A stretch of DNA of 62,055 bases, counting the filler, from Sphacelaria rigidula (taxonomy: Eukaryota), in the NCBI GenBank assembly GCA_964200075.2. It is 3 parts of 3 records of this genome, joined end to end, with 100 filler letters (N's around TTAATTAATTAA, not from the genome) between each part and the next. Parts side by side here need not be neighbours in the genome. Positions count along the whole stretch, not along the records: positions 1 to 20,629 come from CAXNAA020000507.1; 2 more parts are not named here. One strand, given 5' to 3'. Of the stretch, positions 5,470 to 60,800 are shown one piece after another. Position 1 is the stretch's first letter, and each line of letters starts with the position of its first letter. A program made the position numbers and the translations under genes. The notes under the pieces were generated by a model. The model had not been told where the DNA came from. It did not search any database and saw only the letters and a program-made list of their open reading frames with translations.

Positions 5470-6560
5470 GGAAGTTGGAAGCGGACAATACGAGAGAGAT
5501 ACGAAAGCACCACAGCAGTATTTTGTTTTTTTACTACTCATGGAAAAGGTATTTGATCCTTTGCGATTGCTCGAACCCGCTGTCGCTAGCTTTGAACCAT
5601 GATTTATGCACATGTATTGAGCGAGAGATATGGCGGCAGGAACCACTTCTCTGGGGAATCATTACTTTTACACGTAGGCTTTCGTCACAGAAAAGTAAGC
5701 AGAAAGAAACGGCGTAGCAGTGATCCTCGCCCCAAACTCGGTCCATCTTGAAGCTTTGTTGCGGAAGTCGGAACCTTTTCCCGTTCAGGCTTGCTGCGGA
5801 CCAGGGAAGTCCCGTGCAGATTTTGAGCTCCATATACCGGGTGCCCTGCAGCGCTGTAGGGGAAGTTAGCGAGGAACATACGCTGCAACCTCATTTGTCC
5901 AATACGAAGCAAATCGTCAAGTGTTTTGGAGCTCGTTATTTGGGAATGCACAGACGGTCACGCCTGCGTTGGAAACCCCTTGGGAAAAGCGTTGATTTCA
6001 TTCGGGCTATGTACGGATGGCTCGTCACTCCACATGGGTGAACAACCAGGGACTGTCTCACGATTACATTGATTTTCTTCACATCGTTTCAACATGATAC
6101 ATGATGTGAGGTACTACGGTCTAACGCGTTCGACGTTGTATGGGTCTCATGAGCTCGGAGCACTGCCCCACGTGTCACGACAACAATCCTTGCTTCGGAT
6201 CAGTATCCTCAAGCCGCAATGTTTCTGAGAAGTGCCTGTTGATGCCAAAAAGAATGCCGACCTACAAAAAATGCTTTTCGTAGCCTCGCTCTTCAGGGTA
6301 TAGGCCGTAAGATCACACACTTCTACCGTCATTCATTTTGTGTATCTGTACTCCAGGTCACCACGAAACTTTCCGACAACGGGGTTTTTCAATTTCTTAC
6401 ATTTTGCCGGTTGTCGGGGGTCGAAGGGTTCTGGGAGATACGGGGGCGATCACGTGACGTTCGGGGACCCCCGAAAACCGGCGAATAAGAAAACCGGTAA
6501 GCACCATCTTCAGAGAGTCGTAATGCCGTAAAGTACATGTGCTCGATTTCCAGAGTCTAA
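5470..6560 (+). repeat. left arm of a large diverged inverted repeat (partner 9958-11450)
   Basis: Collinear reverse-complement match, e.g. gtagcagtgatcctcgccccaaa (5713) vs tttggggcgaggatcactgctac (11186), and cttcagggtataggccgtaagatcacac (6291) vs gtgtgatcttacggcctataccctgaag (10313). Confidence 0.9.
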
Positions 6561-6724
6561 CTCTAAACCCTCCGTAACATTTCGGGCATATTTGCGCTAA
6601 AGTGTCTCGTGTCCGATACAACCTCTTAACTTAATTGATTTGAGTATATGACGGTATTTTTGACGTGAAATAACCCGGTTTTTATCAGTTTGTCAGGTTT
6701 CGCAACGAAATTGTACCAATCGTG

Positions 6725-7301
6725 TAAGGTCAGGTCGAGTAGAGTATAGTCAATACTCGGTAGTTTCGAAAAGTCATACTCGTAGAACTCAGATTTTGAG
6801 TGAGGTATCTGAGGTCGTACTCAATCTACCTACACGTTGAGTGGAGTATTTGAAGTCATACTAAATTCACCCAAAATTCAAGTGGAGTATTGAGGTCACA
6901 CCCAAGCAATACTCTATATTCCAAGTATTACTGAGAGTACTTACCCAGAATTTGAGTGGAGTATTTAAGGTCGTACTCAATCTACCCAAAGTCTGAGTAG
7001 AGTATTATGATCATACCCAAGTGCTTCTCCATACTCCGAGTATTGCTCAAAGTACTTCCCAAACATTTGAGAAGAGTATTTGAGGTCCTACGCAATCTAC
7101 CCAAAATCTGAGTAGATTTTTTCAGGTTATACTCGATGTACCCAAAATTTGAGTAGAGTGTTTAAGGCCGTACTCAATCTACCGAAAACTTGAGTAGAGG
7201 TTTTGAGGTGATTCTCAATCTACCCAAAGTTTGAGTAGAGTAGATACTCGGTATGTTCACCCGAGTATTCAAGAGTACATGCTTTATTCGAACTGCCCTT
7301 G
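6725..7301. mobile_element. MITE-like element with ~26-bp TIRs, filled with 41-bp tandem repeats
   Basis: The left end taaggtcaggtcgagtagagtat is inverse to the right end atgctttattcgaactgcccttg. The internal unit is approximately gagtagagtatttgaggtcgtactcaatctacccaaaattt. The flanks caatcgtg / cactgtg may be a decayed target-site duplication. Confidence 0.75.
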
Positions 7302-7669
7302 CACTGTGTCCCCCGCTGGGTTTCCCATAGAGGAGTCAGATGTGCGGCCAGTAGAGTCGCTCATTTTGATTATACCTACCCGTCTACTCGATTACTGAAT
7401 GATGATGAGGAGCGCTTTGTACTGAAACTGACATCGAAGAGGTTGCGAGGTATCAAGTATGTACTGCCGTGGGTGGGGGCAGGTGAGCTGGGGCAGGTGG
7501 GTTCATTCACCTGCGCGTTTGTTTAGTTTTTGGATGGCCATCATCCGCTCGTTCTCATTGCAGCTCGTGACGTAACGTCACTCATCTCATTGATGACCAT
7601 CGTTACGCCCATGAATTCAGCATAGTCCGTGAAGTGACGTCACGAAGCCGCCGACAGTCACGGTTACTC

Positions 7670-8035
7670 ATCACACCCAAATGATACTCTATACCTGAGT
7701 ATTTCTGAGAGAGCTCACCCAATATTTGCGTAGAGTATTTGAAGTTATACTAAATCTACCCGAACTTTGAGTAAAGTATCTGAGGTCGTACTCACGTGAT
7801 ACTCTAAACCCAACTACTGCTGAGAGTGCTTACCCAAAATTTGAGTCAAGTATTTGAGGTCGTAACTGAATCTACCCAAATCTTGAGTAGATCATTTGAG
7901 GCCGTACTCGATCTACCCAAATATTGCATAAAGTATTTGAGGCCGAACTCGATCTACCCGAAATTTGAGTAAAGTAATTACTCGGGTATTTTACTCGAGT
8001 ATTCAAAACTACATACTCTACTCGACCTGTCCTTG
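7670..8035. mobile_element. second, left-truncated copy of the 41-bp-repeat MITE
   Basis: Same 41-bp unit. It ends in atactctactcgacctgtccttg, a close reverse complement of the 6725 terminus. Confidence 0.75.
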
Positions 8036-8714
8036 AAATAATTGTTTGACTACCCCGGGACGAATAAATATATATTTTTTGTTTTGAGGCATTTTATGCC
8101 GGCTCCCGGGGGTTTCGACGCCTGAACCCGCGGAAGCCCGTGTGAGCGGGGCAGCTTCGAAATATTTTCAACGACCAATTTATTTTCTTCGGTTGGAGCA
8201 CCAATACGCAACGAACTACCAAGTTTGAGTATAATCATAGCCGTTCCACGACAGATATAAGCGAAACTGTCCAGAAGCCTTCTGGGTCTTTGATGCAGAT
8301 CATCAGTAGGAATCCGACGACGCCCAAACCTCACATCATGAAGATTCTACCGGTTTGGGTATTCGACCCCATAGTAAGCGTTTTCAAATGTTTTTTTTTG
8401 CAGTCGGATTACTAAGCTGATGGTGGATACTACAAACTGAAGCACATGAAAAGTGTGTGATTTTTTTTTTTTTATTATTACTCGTTATTTTACTTGTCGC
8501 ACTCCAAACGCCTCCCCTTACTCGGTACGAGTCCGTGGTCTCAAGGGATCAACCAATATCGCTCCTGCTCATGCCTTGCCATTTGATCTCGCGGAATTGG
8601 GACAGCGCTCCCGCATTGCGTCAACTCCCGTCAAACAAACTCAGTGCTCTACTTTTTGCTGACTCAGGTACCCTCGCTTCCGACGGTGGAAATCAGATAC
8701 ATGAAGAAAAAGAT

Positions 8715-8788
8715 ACAACGCATGGGGAATCGAACCCATGATCTGCCCACCTTAGCGGTGACAGTCGGACCATTGCACCACGGGGTCG
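8715..8788 (-). other. degenerate tRNA-like sequence (pseudo-tRNA or head of a second SINE family)
   Basis: Minus strand: gcgaccccgTGGTGCAATGGtccg...atgGGTTCGATTCCcc, followed by a T5 run. A and B boxes are present but the cloverleaf is imperfect. The same 5' motif recurs at 11741. Confidence 0.45.
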
Positions 8789-8819
8789 CAGCGGCTGGTT
8801 AAAAACTTCGTATATTTGA

Positions 8820-8992
8820 TATCAGAACAGCTTGAGCGCCGCTGATTGGTCGAGGGGCATTTCGCCCCCTAGCGCAACCACTACGGCCTTGAACAAAACT
8901 CCGGCTATGTCAATTTATCAATTTGTCCATGGGCAGTATGATGCTATGTATGCGATTTTTCGGTGAGTGCTGTGAAAGGGATATGGTGATGA
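8820..8992 (+). repeat. dispersed repeat containing GCTGATTGGTCGA (CCAAT box on the minus strand)
   Basis: Aligns over ~170 bp with 25065-25240, and partly in reverse with 19400-19460. Confidence 0.7.
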
Positions 8993-9957
8993 GTGTATTT
9001 GGGCTGTTCATCTTGAACCGGCCTGCACGGCTAATAATGTTCACTAGGCCTCGCTAACCACAAATGTTTTGCTTTCTCTTCGAAGCGGTTTTGAAATACT
9101 ATCCCGTCTACATGGTGCAAGCGAATCGAGCACCTCACGTGTCGTGGTGCTCTCTGTTTGACAGTGGCACTTGCAGTCATAAGTGTGCACGTGGCAGCGC
9201 GTGTTTTATCTAGTATGTTCTCACCAACCGGTATTCCCCCCACTCCAGACACAGTAGTCCGCAATAGCATCTGAAACATGTCTCGAGACAGGAGCTACGT
9301 GGAAAGAACAGGCACCAATCAAAATTGGAATGGTCGTAGGTGCGGACATATTGATAAACGTCCCGTGGTCATCCCAACACCAGTATCTGTTGGAATATAT
9401 ATGGCTATCGTGGCTTGTGCATACAATACACAACCTTCAACTGTCAACCTTACGGGAAGATTCGGTTCACCACGTGAGCCCAGCTCTGACAAGAGAGCTC
9501 GCAGAGGCTGCACAGTGTTGTTTAACACTTGCTTGTGCAATGGAAGACGAAATATATATTTCAAGCTTAGCTCCTGATCCGGTCGATTATACACAATAAA
9601 GCACTTGGTTTCTTATAAACGCAAAAACCAATAACCAGCTGATATGCTTGGTTGAGTGGAGAAAAATAGAGAGGGACCACGAGGTGGCATCCCAGAAAAG
9701 TGTCTTATCTCAACAAAACCTTACGCCCTTGAAACTGTACGATTTGAACCATATAGCCATGAACTCTACATACATCAACTCTTGATACTAAAAACTTCTC
9801 GTCTCAAGCTCTTCACTATTCTGACATCAACAGTTCGACCTATCCATTCATCAATCCTACGCAACGATTAGGTCAAAACCCGTTCGTACTGTGTATTCTA
9901 CGTTCTACGTATGTTGCTGTTGATGTTGTACCGTCGCTTCATCCACCGCTAAAGTTG

Positions 9958-11450
9958 TTTAGGCTCTGAAAATCGATCACATGTACTTTACGTCATTACG
10001 ACTTTCTGAAGACGGGGTTTTCCTATGTTTACACTCGCCGGTTGTCGGGGGTCCCAGAACGTGACGTGATCACCTCAAATCCACCAGAAGCCTAGGACTC
10101 CCTTTCACCGGCGAAATGAAAGAAATCGAACAACCCCATCCTCCAAAAGGATCGTAGTGACCTGAAGTACAGATGTACAAATTCTTGGACTCTCACTCTA
10201 AACCCTGCGGGAAGGTTTGCGATGAGTGTAGTTGGGTGTTCACCGTGAATCAGATTGTATCTAGCAGCGGTTTCTGTGACCAAAGCGGGTAAAGGTGAAT
10301 GACTGTATAACTGTGTGATCTTACGGCCTATACCCTGAAGAGCAAGGCTACGAAAAGTATCCTTTTTAGGTCGATATTATTTCTGGCACCAACAGGCACT
10401 TCTCAGAAACACTGCGGCTTGAGGATACTGATCCGAAACAAGGATTGTTGTTGTGACACGTTGGGCAGTGCTCCGAGCTCACAAGACCGATACAAGGTCT
10501 AACGCGTTAGATCGTATCATATGCCATCTCATATTTTGAAGCAATGTGAAGAAAATGAATTTCCTCGTGAGACAGTCCCTGGTTGTTCACCCATATGGAG
10601 TGACGAGGCACCCGTACATAGCCCGTGTGAAATTAATGCTTTTCCCAAGGGGTTTCCAACGCAGGCATGATCACCTCTGTTTTTCTCAGATGAAGGGCTC
10701 CAAAACACGTCATGACTCATCTCATAACAGAAAAATGAGGTTGTAGCTGCCTTCTCGACTTCTACTACGAAGGCACACGTGGCATCGGCGTCGGCGCAAT
10801 ATCTGGGAGTAGAGCTTCATACTTGTCACGTGTTCTAATTCGTCATTCCACACGACCTACAAAACTAAACCACATGGCATGTCGGTTGTGCGTCATCACC
10901 TATTTAGCCAGTATCTCCTTCACGAGGTGAAATTCTGCTGTTGAGACGGCACAAGGCTCTTGAAACGCATGCCGGGCGGTGAAATCGTGGGCTGACGCAC
11001 GTGGGAAGCGTGTTCTAGGATGCACAAACGGAATACTGAATCCTGTTCCTCGCCAACGTCTCTGCAGTGCTGCAGGGCAAGCGGGAAATGGAGCTTGCAA
11101 CCCGCAGTGGGACTTCTCCGACCCGCAGCAGTCCTGAACGGGAAAAGGTTCCGAATTTCGCAAAAAGGTTTCAATGTAGACCGAATTTGGGGCGAGGATC
11201 ACTGCTACTTAATTTCCTGTTGCTCACTCTCCCATGACGAAAGCTTACGCGCGGAAGCAATTTTTTCGGGAAAGTGGTTTCGTCCACCGCATCTCTCACT
11301 CCGTACGTCAGCACACTTCGGTGTTCAAACCTTAGGGCAGGGGGTTCGATATGTTGCAGAGTACCCAATACCTGTGCTACGAGTAGTGTAACAAAACAAA
11401 ATCCTGCTCTGGTGCTTTCAAATCTTCTCGTATTGTACACTCCCAACATT
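9958..11450 (-). repeat. right arm of the large inverted repeat, with extra segments at ~10180-10295 and ~10748-11043
   Basis: Reverse-complement alignment to 5470-6560 with two insertions. Its 9958-10200 part is itself an imperfect hairpin. Confidence 0.9.
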
Positions 11451-15755: not shown

Positions 15756-16451
15756 GTGTGATGATATTCGGCAAATATGTATGTATTTTTGCGCGTGTGC
15801 GCATCCCAAGTTCGTTATCAAGATTGATATAATTGCTTTCGACGGTCGCGTGTACCGGTGTTGAGAACAAATCACATCCCCGTTCTATTTATATTTTGTA
15901 GCAGTGGAACAGAACAGGGTCAAACCAGGCCAGTAGCTCGGAACGTGATCAGGTATCTTCGAGTTCAGGACGATTTCCTCTAACTTTGTTGGTGTATATG
16001 ATCTCCCCCAACGTTGTCAGATATTCTGCCAGTGTAGAGCAGCTGCCCAAAACGTTGGCACGTGTTCTACAATCTCTGAATTGTGTAATACTACATGTAT
16101 TAAGTCCGGTGGATCACGACATGGTATTATGCGTTCAAGCTTGTCTGCTTTCATTTATCTGTTGTATCCTTTCAATGCTATTTGTACTTCAGATCCATAC
16201 CGCCGTACTGGTGCGAAAGTTCCATTCATTCAAATCACCTTGGGCACTCGAGTTGTAGTCGTGGCGATCGGTTTATGCAAAGCGTTATTTCAGTAAGTGC
16301 AGATAGCGCCTCTTCTTCCCGTTGGAGTGCGACGATAGCGTTTTTTTCAAGTCGCTTTCTCCTGCAGCTGACAGAAGGACCCTCCGTTGTTTTGCCAATT
16401 GTGCTACCGTGAAACGTCATTTCTCTTCAGAAACACCACGCGACAGAGCTG

Positions 16452-18839
16452 ATGGCCAGCGGGGCAAAACCAGAGTGCATCAACGAGGGCTGCTCAAAGC
16501 GGCCATCGTATGGTGTACCGGGCTACAAAGCGGAGTTTTGCTTGAAGCATGCCAGGGTGGGAATGGTGGATGTGGTGAACAAGAAATGTGGCGACGTGGG
16601 CTGCTCTACAAGGCCGTTGTATGGTGTAGCGGGAAGCAAGAAGGCGGAGTTCTGCTTTCAGCATGCCGAGACGGGAATGGTGAACGTGGCGAAGAGGACG
16701 TGCGGCGACGAGGGCTGCTCGAAGCAACCGTCGTATGGTGTAGCGGGAAGCCAGAAGGCGAAGTTCTGCTCTCGGCATGCCAAGGCGGGAATGGTGGATG
16801 TGGTGACGAAGAAATGCGGCGACAAGGGCTGCTCGAAGCAGCCATCGTATGGTGTAGCGGGAAGCCAGAAGGCGAAGTTCTGCTCTCAGCATGCCGAGGC
16901 GAGAATGGTAAATGTGGTAAAGAGGACGTGCGGCGACGAGGGCTGCTCAAAGAAGCCGTCGTATGGTGTAGCGGGAAGCAAGAAGGCGGAGTTCTGCTCT
17001 CAGCATGCCAAGGTAGGAATGATGGATGTGGTGCACAAGAGGTGTGGCGACCAGGGCTGCTCCAAGTTGTCGTCGTTTGGCGTAGCGGGAAGCAAGAAGG
17101 CGGAGTTCTGCTCGAAGCATGCCGAGGCGGGAATGGTGAACGTGGTAAAGAGGACATGCGGCGACGAGGGCTGCTGAGGGAGGCCGTCGTATGGTGTAGC
17201 GGGAAGCAAGAAGGCGAAGTTCTGCTCGAAGCATGCCAGGGCGGGAATGGTGGATGTGGTGGCGAAGAAATGCAGCGACAAGGGCTGCTCGAAGCAGCCA
17301 TCGCATGGTGTAGCGGGAAGCAAGAAGGCGGAATTCTGCTCTCAGCATGCCGAGGCGGGAATGGTGAACGTGGTGAAGAGGACGTGCGGCGACGACGGCT
17401 GCTCTAAAAGGCCGTCGTATGGTGTAGCGGGAAGCAAGAAGGCGGAGTTCTGCTCTCAGCATGCCAGAGCGGGAATGGTGTATGTGGTGAAGAAGGCGTG
17501 CGGCGACGAGGGCTGCTCGAAGCAGCCGTCGTATGGTGTAGCGGGAAGCAAGAAGGCGGAATTCTGCTCTCAGCATGCCAGGGCGGGAATGGTGTATGTG
17601 GTTAAGAAGGCGTGCGGCGACGAGGGCTCCTCGACAAGGCCGTCGTATGGCGTAGCGGCAAGCAAGAAGGTGGAGTTGAGCTCTCAGCATGCCAGGGCAG
17701 GAATGGAGCATGCCAAGGCGGGGATGGTGGATGTGGTGACGAAGAAATGCGGCGACGAGGGCTGCTCGAAGCAGCCGTCGTATGGTGTAGCGGGAAGCAA
17801 GAAGGCGGAGTTCGGCCCTGAGCATGCCAGGGCGGGAATGGTGGATGTGGTGACCAAGAAATGTGGCCACCAGGGCTGCCCCATGCGCCCATTTTGTGGT
17901 GTGGCGGGAAGCAAGAAGGCGGAGTTCTGCTCGAAGCATGCCAGGGAGGAAATGGCGGATGTGCATAAGAGTTGTGGCGAAGAGGGCTGCTCGAAGTATC
18001 CATCAATCGGCGTGGCGGGAAGCCACACGCCGGAGTTCCGCTCCAAGCATGCCAGGGCAGGAACGGTGGATGTGGTGACCAAGAAGCGCGGTGGTGATGG
18101 CTGCTGCAAAAGGCCGTCGTATGGTATAGCGGGAAGCAAGAAGGCGGAATTTTGCTCTCACTATGCCAAGGCGGGCGTCGTTCGTGTGGTGAGCTACAAG
18201 GCTTGCAAAGAGGGACGCTTAAAAACGGGTATTCTCAAGAGCGACCACCTTGGTAAGACAATGTTGTGCCGGCAGCATCCCACTGCGCATGAAGCAGCTA
18301 CAGTATACGACGTGGAATACCTCAGCACTGGGGAGGCCACCTCCACCCGCAACACAACCGACGATGGTGGAGGAAACGTCGCTGGCGTGCGAGGAACAAA
18401 ACGCAAGTGGGTACCATGCTTGTGCTCTAGTACAAGCGACGTTGTTGATGCTCGACGTGGTGTGCCCCCTGTTGCCAGGCGTGGTGGTGTAACACCACTG
18501 TTACTTGCGGGCCAGCTACCCTCAGGGGCTGATGGTGAGGTGTCTTCCGTGCCAGGGGTAGGAGCAGGAATTAAGGTAGAGGTGTCAGCTCCTTCTCCTA
18601 CTGACGGTGACGCTATTATGGGAGAGTGTAGCAAGCATGCTGCCCCTTTGAGGGTTTGGAGCCGTGCAGGTGGTGAAAGTAGCTCCGGCAGCAACAGTTG
18701 TGGTGTGAGCGCAGGACGGCTTTATGGCTCGCCGGCAGTTGTATGTGGATCTTTTGTCCGGTTCGTTGGTGTGGAATCAGTAGAGACGTTGAAGGGTTCA
18801 AGCGTGAAGTTGGAGCTAGGAGTGGCGTCCGACAGATGA
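16452..18839 (+). pseudogene. EsV-1-7 cysteine-rich repeat protein gene (about 15 x 38-aa C-x4-C-x16-C-x2-H repeats) with one in-frame TGA at 17175-17177; a pseudogene or a truncated 6-repeat allele
   Basis: ORFs 16452-17177 and 17247-18839 are in the same frame, and the 23 codons between them continue the repeat (GC*GRPSYGVAGSKKAKFCSKHARAG). The consensus KKCGDEGCSKQPSYGVAGSKKAEFCSQHAKAGMVDVV is the EsV-1-7 motif. A possible in-frame splice acceptor ttctcttcag ends at 16430. Confidence 0.92.
16476..18200 (+). repeat. coding 114-bp tandem repeat array with a partial 228-bp A/B higher-order period
   Basis: Units KKCG...HAEAGMVNVVK alternate with RTCG...HA(K/R)AGMVDVV over repeats 2-9. Confidence 0.9.
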
Positions 18840-20629
18840 TGGATGATGCTATTCCTTGTACTGATTCTGTTTAGATTACACGGGGAGTATGCCGGACGCT
18901 AGCTTGCACGACCCGACCCCTCAAACGGAAAGTGGCTGGTACGGATTGGTTTGCTACCTCGATGCGGAGGAGACCGTAAGGTTACGGGGCCCTGATATCC
19001 CAATGCTATGTTCCACCAGTGTGTCGTGGACCCTTGATTTGTACAGTTGTGATCGCCATGTGTCTTGTAGTCATGTGCCGAGAGCTGCCCCAAGGTAGAT
19101 GCACTGTGGAAATCGGCCACCGAATGAAACGTGACACTGCTGTTGACGTTCAACTCATGCAGCAATTATGTCCAGCTTTCTCTGGATAATGCTGTGCGAT
19201 TTCGAGGTGCATGCCTCTAGCACCATGATAAAGGCACGGAGACGGAGACGGGCGTTCAACTTGTCACCCTCGTTCATCTCACACCTGCATGTGTATCCAA
19301 AACCAGAGCGCACGTAGTGTCTCACATTTTTGTACAGACACTATCGCCGTAAGCAAAGCTACAGTAGGGGTGCACTTTTCGCGCAAAAGCTTGTCTGGTT
19401 GAGGCGCTAAATGCGAAAAAGTATATCGACCAATCAGCGCCCGTCGAATTGTTCCGAGGTCAAAAATTCTCCGAGGCACTTGGGGCTGAAAAGGCTTCTA
19501 CTGAACCAAAATTGAAAAGGTTTTCGTCCTGCCCCCTATCCTATTCGTCCGGACCTTACGAAGCTCCGAAGCACGCAAGTTTTTTTCCCGAAGTGATTCG
19601 AAGCCGCGCTGTGCGAAAACAACCATCCCATCGTTCTTCAAACAAACATGAATCGTGACGCCCTCAACAAGTTTCAGCTTCATTGGTGCTCATGGCGTTG
19701 TGTTTCGCTTCCGTCTCTGGGCGCACTCGAGTGTTGGAATAGCTCGTGTTGAGCGGCACTGTCGTCAAGAAATGCCAACCACGTATTCAGCGAATAGTGG
19801 TCTATGCAGAGGGTGCACCAGTGATCGTCAGATCACTTGCTTCTGCAGCATAGATAAAAACAGTTGAAGGAGATGGCTGTTGGGCTCTTCATCAGGCCAA
19901 GGCAAAATAGAATGCACAGTTCCTCCGGAAAGCAGTAACTGGAGGTGATGGAATAGGGAGAGAGAGCATGGGCGATCGAGGTGACCGAGTCCAAGCTCCT
20001 CGATTCCTGGAACAAAAACAAATCGCTATACGTACGTAGCAAAAAGGCTTCCACGTCACTTGCGTGGCGTAGCGCCAGCTCATACACAACAGGATATACT
20101 GCAAGCTGTGCTACCCACCTACTTCTACAGCATACTATTGTGTAACAATCCCTGGCAGCACACTGTCATTATTGAAACCTCACGTGGCAACAAGATACCA
20201 TGTACTGTAACGGCGAGAAACTGTAAATACGCCGTTTGGCGTGAGCGGAGTGAACCGTAACCAACTACGCCGCTATTTGCCACAGAGTTTGAACTCATAG
20301 ATAGAACAAGCAGCTGGGGTACAGGCTGCGTAGAATTCCAACATCCCCTCATGAGTTGAACGTTGTGGAAAATCAACTCCCAATCAAACTGCAAATCAGG
20401 TATACAAACAGGAGAAACGACAAGGTACACCTTACTGATGTGTGGGCATTAGTCTGCATGAAAATTGCATATCTACCTCGTCAACAGACGCTAGTATAAA
20501 ACTCGCTACACTTCTAAGGTTGGCAGTATGTACTCCCTTTCTTCTTTATTCTTTATCTCTGTTTGCTTGTACCGCGTTTTGTGAGTTTTTCACTCTGGAT
20601 CTACTTTATTTTATTTTGGTTTCTTCTGC

Positions 20630-20729
20630 NNNNNNNNNNNNNNNNNNNNNNNNNNNNNNNNNNNNNNNNNNNNTTAATTAATTAANNNNNNNNNNNNNNN
20701 NNNNNNNNNNNNNNNNNNNNNNNNNNNNN
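20630..20729. other. assembly gap with artificial TTAATTAATTAA linker
   Basis: N44-TTAATTAATTAA-N44. Confidence 0.98.
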
Positions 20730-20744
20730 GCTTCCGCCGGTGTG

Positions 20745-20830
20745 CGTGTGCCTACTCATCTGTTGCTTGTCTGTGTCAGGTGACCATTGACCACGCATCC
20801 CTTTCGAGACGGAGCATGGGGGGGGGGGTA
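20745..20830 (+). repeat. dispersed G-tract-associated module (family G)
   Basis: tactcat.tgttgcttg...gaccattgaccacgcatccctttcgagacggagca. Also at 41460-41580 (-), 59715-59895 and 60405-60800. Confidence 0.8.
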
Positions 20831-39785: not shown

Positions 39786-41101
39786 AGGGCCAGAGACAAG
39801 AGTGGGTCGACTCACGCCCTCTCCAGCTAAAAATGGGTCTTGGCAATACACAGGTACGCTCCCTCCGTACTCCTCTGAAATCGATCCAAATTCAATCCTG
39901 ACGCAAAGGTGAGTCGACCACGGCCTAGGCAGGGCACGGGCGTCGATTTTCATGAACTTGCCGGCGCACATACGAACCAAACACAGCCGCGGGCGACAAG
40001 GGCTGCGCAGTAGTCCTCCTACAGTCCGAGAACGGGGTGGGACGACCCACCACCACCTGCTACTTGAAACATAGGCCCTCCTTTTTGCCATGGTTAGACC
40101 CCTTTTTGCCAAGGTAGACCCTCTTGTGACCACTCTCCGCCTATGAAAAGTCACCCTCCACGCCACCGCACGGGAGAACATCACAGGACCTACAACATCT
40201 CCAGAGAATCTTCCCGTAACCTGAAGAAATCCCCCGCGCACAAACCAGACCTCATCGGGATGTCTAGCTGGTCGCTTCCTCACGGAACAACAGTAATGGC
40301 CGACAATGATCGATCTCTCACACAGTATTGTTCTGCAACAGTTGCAGAGACCCTAACGGAACCCAACGGATCGAAGCCCCGAAGATTATGGCGAAATAAT
40401 TTTGCTGGGGGCGTGACTTCTCTGGGCGAAGAGTTTGACGTCTTCACCAGACGAATCCTGGCACAGTTTTGGACCGTTACTGCTTCTCTCGGAATATGAT
40501 ATGTGAGGACAGCTTTCTTGTCGCGGGCGCGACCGGTTGGGTTCCGTGGGGATCTCTGCAAACTGTTGCCGAATAATAACACGTGAGAGATCAATCAGTG
40601 TCCGCCATTATTGTCGTTCCGTGAGGAAGCGACCACCTAGACATCCCGATGGGGTCTGGTTTGTGTGCGGGGAATTTCTTCAAATGCGGCGGGGATGTTG
40701 TAGGTCTTGGGATGCTCTCCCGTGCGGTGGCGTGGAGGGTGAGTTTTGACAGGCGGAGAGTTGTCACCAGAGGGTCTACTTTAGCAAAAATGGGGTCTAA
40801 CCATGGTGAAAAAGGGGGTCTAGGATTCAAATAGCAGATGACAATGGGTCGTCTCACCCCGTTCTCGGACTAAAAGAGGCCTTCTGCGCAGCTCTTGGCA
40901 CTGTTCGGTCTGTGGGCGCGCCGACAACTTCGTGAAAATCGATTACCGTGCTCTGCCGAGGCCGTGGTCGACTCGCCTTCGCGTCAGGATTGGATTCGGA
41001 TGAATTTCAGAGGAGCACGGACAGAGCTCGTACCTGTGGTTTGTCAAGACCTCTTTTTGGCTGAAAAGGGCGTGGGTCGACACCCGTTTGCCGACGGCCC
41101 T
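39786..41101. mobile_element. 1.3-kb foldback element: ~590-bp inverted arms and a ~130-bp loop
   Basis: caccctccacgccaccgcacgggaga (40152) / tctcccgtgcggtggcgtggagggtg (40716); atcgggatgtctag / ctagacatcccgat; ends agggcc / ggccct. Confidence 0.92.
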
Positions 41102-41343: not shown

Positions 41344-41443
41344 NNNNNNNNNNNNNNNNNNNNNNNNNNNNNNNNNNNNNNNNNNNNTTAATTAATTAAN
41401 NNNNNNNNNNNNNNNNNNNNNNNNNNNNNNNNNNNNNNNNNNN
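41344..41443. other. assembly gap with artificial TTAATTAATTAA linker
   Basis: N44-TTAATTAATTAA-N44. Confidence 0.98.
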
Positions 41444-59714: not shown

Positions 59715-59895
59715 AGGGGGAGGGGGAGGGTGTACTTATTTTTATTTGCCCTTCTCGTTTGACTTTTGATCACCCATCCCCTTCGAGACGGAGCAAGGGA
59801 GGGGGGGGGCGTACTCATTTGTTGCTTGCCTTAGTCGTTCGACCATTGACCACGCATCCCTCTCGAGACGGAGCAAGGGGGGCGGGGGGGGAAGG
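59715..59895 (+). repeat. tandem pair of the family G module
   Basis: G-tract + tact.attt...catccc.tcgagacggagcaaggg occurs twice. Confidence 0.75.
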
Positions 59896-60404
59896 GGAGA
59901 AGTATTTTTCTGCCTCTTCATACCTGCCCCATTCGGGCGGGAACTGACTGGTGTTTTTTCATCGTCTGAATATGGACGACTTTCATGGTCCCCATGATAT
60001 CGAAAATGAATCACGTTTTTGATGACCCAAAGCGTGCACATTTTGTGTTTCCCACGCTTAGGAGTACTTTTTACGTTTTCAAAATGTGATCCATTGTGTG
60101 AAGTTTTGCTGTCCCCGCAATGAAGAATGAAACTTCACAGTTTGTCTTGAAACTTTACAATAACGTGTAAGCTTCCCTGCCCGCGTCTCCAAATTAAAAC
60201 GTACACCTTATCATTCTTGGAACCCAGCAAACTTTGCGCGTTTTTGCCGCCCTAAGACACTGCGCTGAATCTCCCATTTTCAAAACTACTGTATACGTTG
60301 GTGAGCTTTTCACGTAGACCTCGGAAGCGAGTTTCACGGACAGGGCAAACCATAAAGGTCGCGGTGCTGATCTTTCGGCGTTCAGAGTAAACTTAGGGCG
60401 AGGA

Positions 60405-60800
60405 AAGGAGGGAGGGGGTGGGGAGGATACTCATTAGTTACTTGCCTTAGTCGTTTGACCACTGACCACGCATCCCTTTCGAGACGCAACACCGTACCTA
60501 CTCTTAATAGAAACACCCCCCCATATTTGGGTGCTCATCACGTCTCTTCCATACATTACACAAAAACCTTTTACATTTGTTCTCCCCGTCCTGTTTCGGG
60601 AGGGGGGGAGGGCTTACTCATTTGTTGCTTGCCTTAGTCGTTTGAGCATTGACCACGCATCCCTTTCGAGACGCAACACCGTACCTACTCCTACTAAAAA
60701 CACCCGCAATACTTGGGTGCTCATTACGTTTCTTCCATACATTACACAAAACCTTTTGCATATGTTCTCTCCGCCCTGTTTCGGGAGGGGGGGGGGGGGG
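60405..60800 (+). repeat. tandem duplication, ~187-bp unit starting with the family G module
   Basis: tgaccacgcatccctttcgagacgcaacaccgtacctactc...ccatacattacacaaaa...ctgtttcgggaggggggg occurs twice. Confidence 0.9.

What the first reader, a model, noticed from the sequence alone, without database searches (positions are those of the whole stretch)
16476..18200. EsV-1-7 array with one hypervariable residue per repeat: candidate TALE-like modular nucleic-acid reader
Seen: 15 near-identical 38-aa C-x4-C-x16-C-x2-H units. The residue just before the conserved Pro (a Ser in repeat 6) reads R,R,Q,Q,K,L,R,Q,R,Q,R,Q,R,Y,R, and the residue before it is K, T, G or M. The common codons CAG (Q) and AGG (R) differ at two bases while the neighbouring codons are almost invariant. 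Established: EsV-1-7 motifs are shared between Ectocarpus siliculosus virus 1 and an expanded brown-algal gene family that includes the developmental regulator IMMEDIATE UPRIGHT; to my knowledge their ligand is not known. Arg, Gln and Lys are typical base-contacting residues. Inference: this may be a zinc-finger array with a repeat-variable code, where shuffling repeats reprograms DNA/RNA specificity, for example against viruses or transposons.
Basis: partly seen in the sequence, partly recalled or inferred. Interest (0 to 1): 0.75.

Follow-up and report, generated by a model that had tools for sequence, protein, structure and literature searches.

The report
Broken EsV-1-7 zinc-repeat gene, one specificity-type residue
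This is a 15-unit member of the brown-algal EsV-1-7 zinc-repeat family that looks partly broken, and the flagged residue is not uniquely variable here but is, across the family, the residue that differs most between repeats while staying fixed between species.

Summary
The array is real: 15 EsV-1-7 (PF19114) units at 16470-18194, + strand.

Three parts of the observation do not hold or were missed:
- The units are only 50-89% identical to each other.
- The flagged position ranks 4th of 38 by entropy and carries 5.8% of all differences.

The locus is therefore probably a decaying paralogue of intact Sphacelaria genes.

At family level the idea gains partial support:
- In 88 homologous arrays this position differs most between repeats (0.80 against 0.63 for the next).
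- It changes between orthologues in only 5 of 134 repeat instances.
- It is almost never acidic (2 of 532).
- In giant-virus proteins, EsV-1-7 arrays are fused to a Vsr-like nuclease fold. There, positions 13 and 11 vary most.
- A published Ectocarpus mariner transposase also carries the domain.

DNA binding is therefore plausible but unproven. A TALE-like one-residue code is not supported. This scan had already noted EsV-1-7-nuclease fusions on other DNA.

The parts
16452..17177 (+). ORF from ATG to the in-frame TGA: 241 aa, units 1-6 plus the start of unit 7
   Evidence: PF19114, 6 stretches, E 8.4e-96
16470..18194 (+). whole EsV-1-7 array of 15 units. The flagged codon ('position 11') is bases 31-33 of each unit.
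16470..16580 (+). unit 1 (37 aa, x15 spacing), position 11 = R, ligands intact
16581..16694 (+). unit 2, position 11 = R, ligands intact
16695..16808 (+). unit 3, position 11 = Q, ligands intact
16809..16922 (+). unit 4, position 11 = Q, ligands intact
16923..17036 (+). unit 5, position 11 = K, ligands intact
17037..17150 (+). unit 6, position 11 = L, Pro replaced by Ser, ligands intact
17151..17264 (+). unit 7, position 11 = R, ligands intact, stop codon at its position 9
17175..17177 (+). in-frame TGA. Four of the six bases across codons 9-10 differ from the other units.
   Evidence: No other letter was listed here in the laid contigs, but cover there comes mostly from multi-copy unitigs.
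17247..18839 (+). downstream ORF of 530 aa from an internal ATG, covering units 7 (part) to 15 plus the tail. The frame is open from 17178.
17265..17378 (+). unit 8, position 11 = Q, ligands intact
17379..17492 (+). unit 9, position 11 = R, ligands intact
17493..17606 (+). unit 10, position 11 = Q. It is 5.7% from unit 9 outside codons 9-11, yet differs from it by 3 bases in codons 10-11.
17607..17741 (+). unit 11 (45 aa), position 11 = R, second and third Cys replaced by Ser
17686..17727 (+). 21-nt tandem duplication inside unit 11
   Evidence: period 21, 2.0 copies
17742..17855 (+). unit 12, position 11 = Q, third Cys replaced by Gly
17856..17966 (+). unit 13 (37 aa), position 11 = R, ligands intact
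17967..18080 (+). unit 14, position 11 = Y, third Cys replaced by Arg
18081..18194 (+). unit 15, position 11 = R, first Cys replaced by Arg and His replaced by Tyr
18195..18839 (+). 214-aa C-terminal tail plus stop. No Pfam family. Colinear with the tail of a Sphacelaria rigidula paralogue.
   Evidence: 66% identity over 214 aa with no gaps to P0001 residues 271-484; no Pfam hit; no likeness to the viral nuclease domain

Best explanation
The locus is a paralogue of a Sphacelaria-type subfamily of EsV-1-7 zinc-repeat genes. These genes have an N-terminal array and a conserved tail of about 214 aa. Here the array was expanded to 15 units by unequal exchange between repeats.

The gene is now decaying. 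It has a premature TGA in unit 7, and six zinc ligands are lost in units 11-15. As it stands it can make at most a six-finger 241-aa product, or a product started internally.

Inferred mechanism for the family:
- Each 38-aa unit holds one zinc through Cys3, Cys8, Cys25 and His28.
- The unit folds into a small helix-free module with three short strands.
- The units line up as a basic rod.
- The residue between the conserved Lys and Pro just after the first zinc knuckle (position 11, joined by position 13 in viral arrays) is chosen separately for each repeat and then kept by purifying selection.
- It therefore acts as a repeat-specific contact residue, most likely to DNA.

Shown here: the anatomy, the breaks, the variability and conservation statistics, and the domain fusions. 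Inferred: zinc binding, exposure of position 11, and DNA as the ligand.
For: Identity of the array: PF19114 with 15 stretches.

Paralogy:
- The best hits are Sphacelaria rigidula proteins at 67% and 65% identity with the same N-terminus and tail.
- The listed paralogue P0001 has 7 units, all with intact ligands.

Decay:
- In-frame TGA.
- 6 of 60 ligand positions are lost, against 47 of 2128 in the family (binomial p 0.002).
- All six lie in units 11-15: 6 of 20 there against 0 of 40 in units 1-10 (Fisher p 0.0008).
- Overall pN/pS between units is 0.58.

Specificity-type position:
- Pooled entropy is 3.46 bits, rank 1 of 38, in 532 repeats from 120 homologues.
- Within-array mean pairwise difference is 0.80 against 0.63 for the next position, in 88 arrays. 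It ranked first in 2000 of 2000 bootstraps.
- Between orthologues or near-homologues (23 groups) it varies in 5 of 134 repeat instances. The eight other most repeat-variable positions vary in 111 of 1039 (Fisher p 0.008). Regression on the other positions predicts 10.8% (binomial p 0.003).
- Acidic residues occur in 2 of 532 repeats. R, K and H make 41% and Q and N 24%.
- Coupling to other positions is weak: z at most 3.3 within a repeat, against a median of 4.4 and a top of 10.9 among other variable positions.
- In the window, the Q or R state does not follow the similarity of the rest of the repeat (permutation p 0.97).

DNA as ligand:
- 395 proteins share the C-terminal domain of an Aureococcus anophagefferens virus protein. 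All 120 listed carry PF19114.
- That domain's model has pLDDT 73.9.
- Its matches are PD-(D/E)xK nucleases. By Foldseek the best is McrC, E 9.8e-4. By VIA-align they are Vsr (Z 7.5, 125 residues aligned) and the I-Bth0305I catalytic domain (Z 6.9, 96 of 98 aligned).
- An invariant E-x-D-E-x-Q-H and R-x-N-P-D run through its alignment.
- In 83 such arrays, positions 13 (0.76) and 11 (0.70) vary most; the next is 0.48.
- A published Ectocarpus Tc1/mariner transposase has an N-terminal EsV-1-7 domain (PMC12477816, passage read).
- Repeats carry a mean net charge of +2.84, and the window's array has pI 9.36.
Against: Against decay:
- The frame after the TGA stays open for 553 codons.
- The tail aligns to the paralogue without a gap.
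- So the stop may be recent, polymorphic or an assembly error, or the downstream part may still be translated.
- The laid contigs could not settle this.

Against a special role for position 11:
- Against all other positions pooled (340 of 4680), its orthologue rate is not significantly lower (Fisher p 0.13).
- Positions 6, 22, 26 and 35 show a milder form of the same pattern, so position 11 is the extreme of a continuum.
- It carries only 5-7% of within-array differences.
- Repeats and proteins in these counts are related to each other, and the homologue set is biased towards brown algae.

Against DNA binding:
- There is no direct evidence.
- The array model matched no solved DNA-binding fold.
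- The nuclease-fold Z-scores are below 8, a range the tool calls common.
Confidence: 0.55

Rival explanations
1. One reading: a working TALE-like array in which one hypervariable residue per repeat reads one base of DNA or RNA, and repeat shuffling reprograms it, for example against viruses or transposons.
For: - Position 11 is the family's most repeat-variable site and is rich in R, Q, H, K and Y.
- Repeat number differs among near-identical viral nuclease genes.
- In the window, the codon 10-11 variants are shuffled among otherwise similar units.
Against: - Units are only 50-89% identical, and position 11 holds 5.8% of the differences. In TALEs nearly all differences sit at the two variable residues (recalled knowledge).
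- The model has no helices.
- In viral arrays positions 11 and 13 combine almost freely (MI 0.30, rank 92 of 595 pairs), so there is no small set of 'letters'.
- The locus has a premature stop and four damaged fingers.
- Nothing found links it to defence.
Confidence: 0.07
2. Position 11 is only a tolerant surface-loop residue. Its variety reflects old repeat subtypes spread by duplication and short-tract gene conversion, with no role in recognition.
For: - In the window the two main states are multi-base haplotypes: AAG-CAG against A(C/A)A-AGG. They are distributed as a mosaic.
- pS at codon 11 is as high as pN.
- Several other positions are equally variable in this array.
- Against all other positions pooled, the orthologue rate is not significantly lower (p 0.13).
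Against: - A tolerant site should also change fastest between orthologues. It changes in 5 of 134 instances, against 10.7% at comparable positions.
- Acidic residues are almost excluded (2 of 532).
- The same position is at the top in an independent viral set.
Confidence: 0.2
3. The arrays are protein-binding scaffolds, like LIM or PHD zinc modules, and position 11 tunes partner choice rather than reading nucleic acid.
For: - The weak Foldseek rows for the array model are zinc modules of PHD/PZP, LIM and RING type, all with E above 1.
- No solved DNA-binding fold matched.
- Repeat-specific, orthologue-conserved residues are equally expected on a protein-binding surface.
Against: - The enzymes the arrays are fused to act on DNA: a Vsr-like nuclease fold and a mariner transposase.
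- The repeats are strongly basic.
- Position 11 avoids acidic residues.
Confidence: 0.18
4. The locus is an intact working gene. The TGA would then be an assembly error, a strain polymorphism or read through, or the locus makes two products from the ATGs at 16452 and 17247.
For: - The frame is open for 553 codons after the stop, and the tail is gap-free against the paralogue.
- Units 7-10 keep all their ligands.
Against: - No alternative letter was listed at 17175-17177 in the four runs laid, though cover there is dominated by multi-copy unitigs.
- Four fingers downstream have lost ligands, at a rate far above the family's.
- No protein identical to the window's product appears in the protein collection.
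Confidence: 0.3

Closest known systems
EsV-1-7 cysteine-rich repeat family (Pfam PF19114; Ectocarpus IMMEDIATE UPRIGHT; EsV-1 gene 7)
   Same: - The same C-x4-C-x16-C-x2-H motif in tandem 38-aa units, matched far above the Pfam cut-off.
- Brown-algal relatives number in the hundreds per genome and often lie in tandem (bioRxiv 10.1101/2024.02.19.579948, passages read).
   Different: - This copy has 15 units against 7 in its closest listed paralogue, and it carries a premature stop and decayed fingers.
- The passages read call the domain a possible new zinc-finger class of unknown function. They do not describe a repeat-specific residue.
Giant-virus EsV-1-7 array fused to a Vsr-like / EDxHD-type nuclease fold (for example Aureococcus anophagefferens virus gp236, gp226, gp190)
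   Same: The same repeat family by Pfam, and position 11 is again among the two most variable positions within arrays.
   Different: - The viral proteins end in a PD-(D/E)xK-like domain. The window's tail shows no likeness to it.
- Some viral units have C-x2-C knuckles.
- In the viral clusters positions 13 and 11 also differ among close relatives. In host genes position 11 is conserved.
TAL effector repeats
   Same: Tandem repeats of similar length, with a preferred site of between-repeat variation.
   Different: - TALE repeats are helical and near-identical outside two residues (recalled knowledge).
- Here there are no helices, a zinc site, 50-89% identity, and variation spread over many positions.
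C2H2 zinc-finger arrays (for example KRAB-ZNF 'fingerprint' residues)
   Same: - Tandem zinc modules.
- A few positions differ between fingers but are kept between orthologues (for this family; recalled knowledge for C2H2).
- Arrays grow and decay by unequal exchange.
   Different: - The ligand set is C2CH with other spacing.
- The model has no recognition helix.
- There is no sequence or fold match to solved structures.

Membership tests
EsV-1-7 cysteine-rich repeat (PF19114) | Match to the Pfam model above its gathering score (25 bits) | tested here: met
   313.9 and 386.4 bits, 6 + 9 stretches
EsV-1-7 cysteine-rich repeat (PF19114) | C-x4-C-x16-C-x2-H ligand pattern in each unit | tested here: met
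   All four ligands are present in 11 of 15 units. Units 11, 12, 14 and 15 have lost one or two. Unit 1 has x15 spacing.
EsV-1-7 cysteine-rich repeat (PF19114) | Zinc binding by the motif | not testable with these tools
   Inferred from the ligand pattern alone. [quoted passage not shown]
TALE-like repeat-variable-residue arrays | Near-identical repeats whose differences concentrate at one or two residues | tested here: not met
   Position 11 ranks 4th of 38 and holds 74 of 1286 differences. Mean pairwise identity is 0.67. In the family it holds 5-7% of differences.
TALE-like repeat-variable-residue arrays | Two-helix repeat forming a superhelix | tested here: not met
   The AlphaFold2 model of units 2-6 (pLDDT 90.4) has short strands only and no helix. 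pTM is 0.53, so the overall path of the array is uncertain.
TALE-like repeat-variable-residue arrays | One repeat reads one base | not testable with these tools
   No nucleic-acid co-folding or binding data were available.
Modular zinc-finger DNA readers (functional class, for example C2H2 arrays) | Positions that differ between fingers but are conserved between orthologues | tested here: met
   Position 11: 0.80 between repeats and 5 of 134 between orthologues, against 111 of 1039 at comparable positions.
Modular zinc-finger DNA readers (functional class, for example C2H2 arrays) | Fold or sequence likeness to a solved DNA-binding zinc finger | tested here: inconclusive
   No Foldseek match at E <= 0.001, no VIA-align match at Z >= 2, and no PDB sequence match.
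Giant-virus EsV-1-7-nuclease fusions | C-terminal PD-(D/E)xK / Vsr-like domain after the array | tested here: not met
   The window's tail against the nuclease-domain profile gives probability 0.2%, and it has no Pfam family.

The most novel reading that the evidence does not exclude
EsV-1-7 arrays are a so far unrecognised class of modular, sequence-specific DNA-reading zinc domain. In this reading the residues flanking the conserved Pro after the first knuckle (position 11, plus position 13 in viral arrays) set each repeat's contribution to the target. Giant viruses would use the arrays to aim homing-type nucleases. A mariner transposon would use one to find its ends. Brown algae would have expanded them into a lineage-specific family of transcription-factor-like regulators that includes IMMEDIATE UPRIGHT. 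The window's locus would be a dead or dying member of that family.
Probability: 0.3. Interest if true: 0.8.

Novelty: new member of a known kind. Interest (0 to 1): 0.5.

Why it matters
The EsV-1-7 domain defines one of the largest gene families of brown algae and includes the developmental regulator IMM. Every passage I could read calls its molecular function unknown.

This work turns that question into defined experiments. One position differs between repeats but is kept between species. The arrays are also fused to a nuclease-like domain and to a transposase. Together these suggest mutating or swapping positions 11 and 13 and looking for shifted DNA targets.

The locus in this window is itself an ordinary, probably decaying family member. 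It matters mainly as an example of how these arrays grow and break down.

Tried and rejected
- **Whole genome:** none is held for this window.
- **Sequencing runs:** no RNA holder is listed.
- **Laid contigs:** four runs of short Logan contigs were laid.
  - Unique pieces of the locus (17573-17726, 18128-18406, 18535-18685) recur without differences in all four runs.
  - Two small runs of unknown or guessed kind have almost no depth in 16000-16427 and 19103-19200, where two larger runs continue. Because the kinds are guesses, I draw nothing about transcription from this.
  - No joint has GT..AG ends, so nothing suggests an intron across the TGA.
  - No other letter is listed at the TGA, but cover there is mostly multi-copy unitigs.
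- **Array model:** Foldseek against PDB gave no match at E <= 0.001 and VIA-align wide gave none at Z >= 2.
- **PDB sequence search** with the repeat profile: only a chance hit, E 0.85.
- **ESM Atlas:** no usable hit once PF19114 clusters were left out.
- **The search for related loci** with the wide alignment A2 failed for lack of a conserved stretch. It was repeated with the single-repeat alignment A1.
- **Neighbouring ORFs:** Pfam on 15 other long frames of the window and on the tail found no family. Nothing viral was recognised around the gene.
- **Macaisne et al. 2017** (recalled; the paper that defined the family) is not held. It may show a motif logo that already marks the variable positions.
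- **Supplements:** Table S17 of bioRxiv 10.1101/2024.02.19.579948 lists EsV-1-7 genes but could not be seen.
- **Viral close relatives**: positions 13 and 11 vary most among cluster members. Repeat numbers also differ within those clusters, so non-orthologous repeats may be aligned. I do not count this as evidence of diversifying selection.
- **A small discrete code:** rejected for lack of coupling between positions 11 and 13.
- **Earlier findings** by place for this genome: none.
Full report
**What is in the sequence**

Tandem Repeats Finder reports a 114-nt period with 14.7 copies over 16483-18175. A three-unit period of 342 nt scores slightly higher.

[quoted passage not shown] Pfam PF19114 matches 6 stretches in the first ORF (E 8.4e-96) and 9 in the second (E 1.9e-118). 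A profile built from the units finds them only at 16470-18194 on the + strand, and nowhere else in the window's six frames.

So are the K/T/G/M before it and the Ser in unit 6. The common codons CAG and AGG do differ at two bases.

The units are not near-identical. Pairwise identity runs from 0.50 to 0.89, with mean 0.67.

The flagged position (position 11 in my numbering, three residues after the second Cys) is not uniquely variable:
- Its entropy is 1.82 bits, rank 4 of 38. Positions 2 and 38 (2.21) and 6 (1.91) are higher, and position 27 ties.
- It holds 74 of 1286 pairwise differences, 5.8%.
- At the codon level pN is 0.48, second to codon 38 at 0.52. pS is 0.77, so there is no excess of replacement changes.
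- Codon 10 co-varies with it: CAG always follows AAG, while AGG follows ACA, AAA or GGG.

The frame is also broken. Unit 7 has an in-frame TGA at 17175-17177. This leaves a 241-aa ORF (16452-17177) and a frame that is open from 17178 to 18839.

Six zinc ligands are replaced, all in units 11, 12, 14 and 15. Unit 11 carries a 21-nt duplication, and units 1 and 13 each lack one residue. The ligand loss is 6 of 60 positions, against 47 of 2128 in homologues (binomial p 0.002). It is confined to units 11-15: 6 of 20 there against 0 of 40 in units 1-10 (Fisher p 0.0008).

**What the gene is**

A protein search found 169 relatives at E <= 0.001 among the 8000 candidates scored. The 120 listed all carry PF19114. 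The best are unnamed Sphacelaria rigidula proteins at 67% and 65% identity.

The top hit has the same N-terminus, 7 units with intact ligands, and the same C-terminal tail. The window's tail aligns to it at 66% identity over 214 residues without a gap.

The tail has no Pfam family. No protein identical to the window's product is in the collection.

I read the locus as a paralogue whose array grew to 15 units and is now decaying. Against this, the frame stays open for 553 codons after the stop. The stop could therefore be recent, polymorphic or an error. The laid contigs were too short and too repetitive to decide.

**How the array evolved**

Outside codons 9-11, units with the same state at position 11 are no closer to each other than units with different states (permutation p 0.97). 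Units 9 (R) and 10 (Q) differ by 5.7% elsewhere, yet by three bases in codons 10-11.

So the multi-base variants are shuffled among otherwise similar units. This fits unequal exchange and short-tract conversion. It does not by itself show selection.

**The family-level test**

I extracted 532 near-complete repeats (of 755 hits) from the 120 listed homologues.

Variation between repeats:
- Position 11 has the highest pooled entropy, 3.46 bits.
- It has the highest mean pairwise difference within arrays: 0.80 against 0.63 for the next, in the 88 proteins with at least 4 kept repeats.
- It is the most or joint-most variable position in 37 of those 88.
- Bootstrapping over proteins kept it first in 2000 of 2000 draws. 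Its lead was 0.155 (0.099-0.207).
- Even so, it accounts for only 5-7% of within-array differences.

Composition is skewed. Acidic residues occur in 2 of 532 repeats. R, K and H make 41% and Q and N 24%. Other variable positions carry 2-45% acidic residues.

Conservation between orthologues is the discriminating test. I compared 23 groups of orthologues or near-homologues, made of 90%-identity cluster members and pairs at 70-86% identity:
- Position 11 varies in 5 of 134 repeat instances (3.7%).
- The overall rate is 7.2%.
- The eight other most repeat-variable positions vary in 111 of 1039 (10.7%; Fisher p 0.008).
- Regression on the other positions predicts 10.8% (binomial p 0.003).
- Against all other positions pooled the difference is not significant (p 0.13).
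- Positions 6, 22, 26 and 35 show a weaker form of the same pattern.

Position 11 is also only weakly coupled to other positions, in its own repeat or the neighbouring ones. Its z is at most 3.3 within a repeat. Other variable positions have a median of 4.4 and a top of 10.9.

Taken together, the residue is chosen separately for each repeat and then kept. That is the behaviour of a specificity determinant, not of a free loop residue.

**What the ligand might be**

A scan of viral contigs with the repeat profile returned five loci. Two of their array-bearing ORFs were read in full (Pfam):
- L001: 745 aa, 15 PF19114 stretches.
- L002: 418 aa, 4 stretches. This is Aureococcus anophagefferens virus gp236 by the source's name.

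Each ends in a shared C-terminal domain that Pfam does not know.

That domain has these properties:
- It has 395 relatives at E <= 0.001 among 673 candidates, and all 120 listed carry PF19114. UniRef names two of them 'Endonuclease'.
- Its alignment has an invariant E-x-D-E-x-Q-H and R-x-N-P-D.
- Its model has pLDDT 73.9 and pTM 0.71.
- The model matches PD-(D/E)xK nucleases. By Foldseek these are McrC (E 9.8e-4), then R2 endonuclease and restriction-like folds. By VIA-align they are a FASTKD4 RAP module (Z 7.6), Vsr (Z 7.5, 125 residues aligned, rmsd 4.0) and the I-Bth0305I catalytic domain (Z 6.9, 96 of 98 residues).
- These Z-scores are below 8, a range the tool warns is common. The fold assignment therefore rests on the consistency of the hit list together with the motif.

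In 83 of these viral arrays with at least 3 repeats, positions 13 (0.76) and 11 (0.70) are the most variable; the next is 0.48. The two positions combine almost freely.

The three paralogues in the Aureococcus virus have flanks that are about 90% identical around arrays of 3 or 4 units.

Other pointers:
- A published passage reports an Ectocarpus Tc1/mariner transposase with an N-terminal EsV-1-7 domain (PMC12477816).
- Repeats are basic, with a mean net charge of +2.84. The window's array has pI 9.36.
- Earlier notes of this scan had reported EsV-1-7-nuclease fusions on other DNA. I treated them as leads and checked the point on loci of my own.

These fusions make DNA the most likely ligand. 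No binding has been shown.

**Structure**

The AlphaFold2 model of units 2-6 has pLDDT 90.4 and pTM 0.53. Each unit shows three short strands, at positions 14-16, 24 and 33-35, and no helix.

The model has no match in the PDB by Foldseek, VIA-align or sequence. Coordinates are not returned, so I could not measure where position 11 points.

**What is in print**

I searched 'EsV-1-7' (11 papers), 'EsV-1-7' with 'endonuclease' (1 paper), 'PF19114' (1 paper) and 'IMMEDIATE UPRIGHT' with 'cysteine-rich' (19 papers).

The passages read describe a large, tandemly clustered family, possibly of viral origin. [quoted passage not shown] I found no description of a repeat-specific residue or of the nuclease fusion.

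The founding paper (Macaisne et al. 2017, recalled) is not held, and preprint supplements are closed. Either could hold relevant logos or gene lists.

**Verdict**

The locus is an ordinary, probably decaying member of a known family. The useful product of the follow-up is a testable hypothesis: positions 11 and 13 are the specificity positions of a DNA-directed zinc-repeat array.

Noticed in passing
window 20630-20673, 20686-20729, 41344-41387, 41400-41443: Two pairs of 44-base N runs. Each pair is split by 12 bases, and the pairs lie about 20.7 kb apart. They may be masked stretches or gaps.
   Followed up: no
window 5661-11261: Nested long inverted repeats: 221 nt at 90% (6115-6335 with 10296-10516), plus arms of 147, 153 and 116 nt around them. 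Together they bound a segment of about 5.6 kb. This could be a DNA transposon or a large palindrome.
   Followed up: no
window 39858-41027: A cluster of four nested inverted repeats with arms of 104-131 nt at 81-88%, forming a palindromic block of about 1.2 kb just upstream of an N run.
   Followed up: no
window 20739-20828 and 59718-60690: A G-run-flanked element of about 90 nt, present in five dispersed or clustered copies at 62-81% identity. It may be a small mobile element.
   Followed up: no
window 6773-7976: Short tandem and dispersed repeats with 41-nt and 115-nt spacing (families D2 and D6).
   Followed up: no
L002, L003, L005 (one 370,920-base viral contig) and P0178-P0180: Three paralogous EsV-1-7-nuclease genes in the Aureococcus anophagefferens virus genome. 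Their N-terminal leader and nuclease domain are about 90% identical, but their arrays have 3 or 4 units with different residues at positions 11 and 13.
   Followed up: partly
viral protein clusters around P0239, P0185, P0219 and P0272: Members clustered at 90% identity carry very different numbers of EsV-1-7 units, from 0 to 7 within one cluster. Arrays are therefore gained, lost or resized on a nearly constant nuclease domain. Some short members may be gene fragments.
   Followed up: partly
window 18195-18839 and P0001, P0002: The conserved tail of the intact paralogues holds a short basic K-R-K-R patch that reads K-R-K-W in the window's copy. This may be a nuclear-localisation signal, degraded here. 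The motif reading is from recall and was not tested.
   Followed up: no
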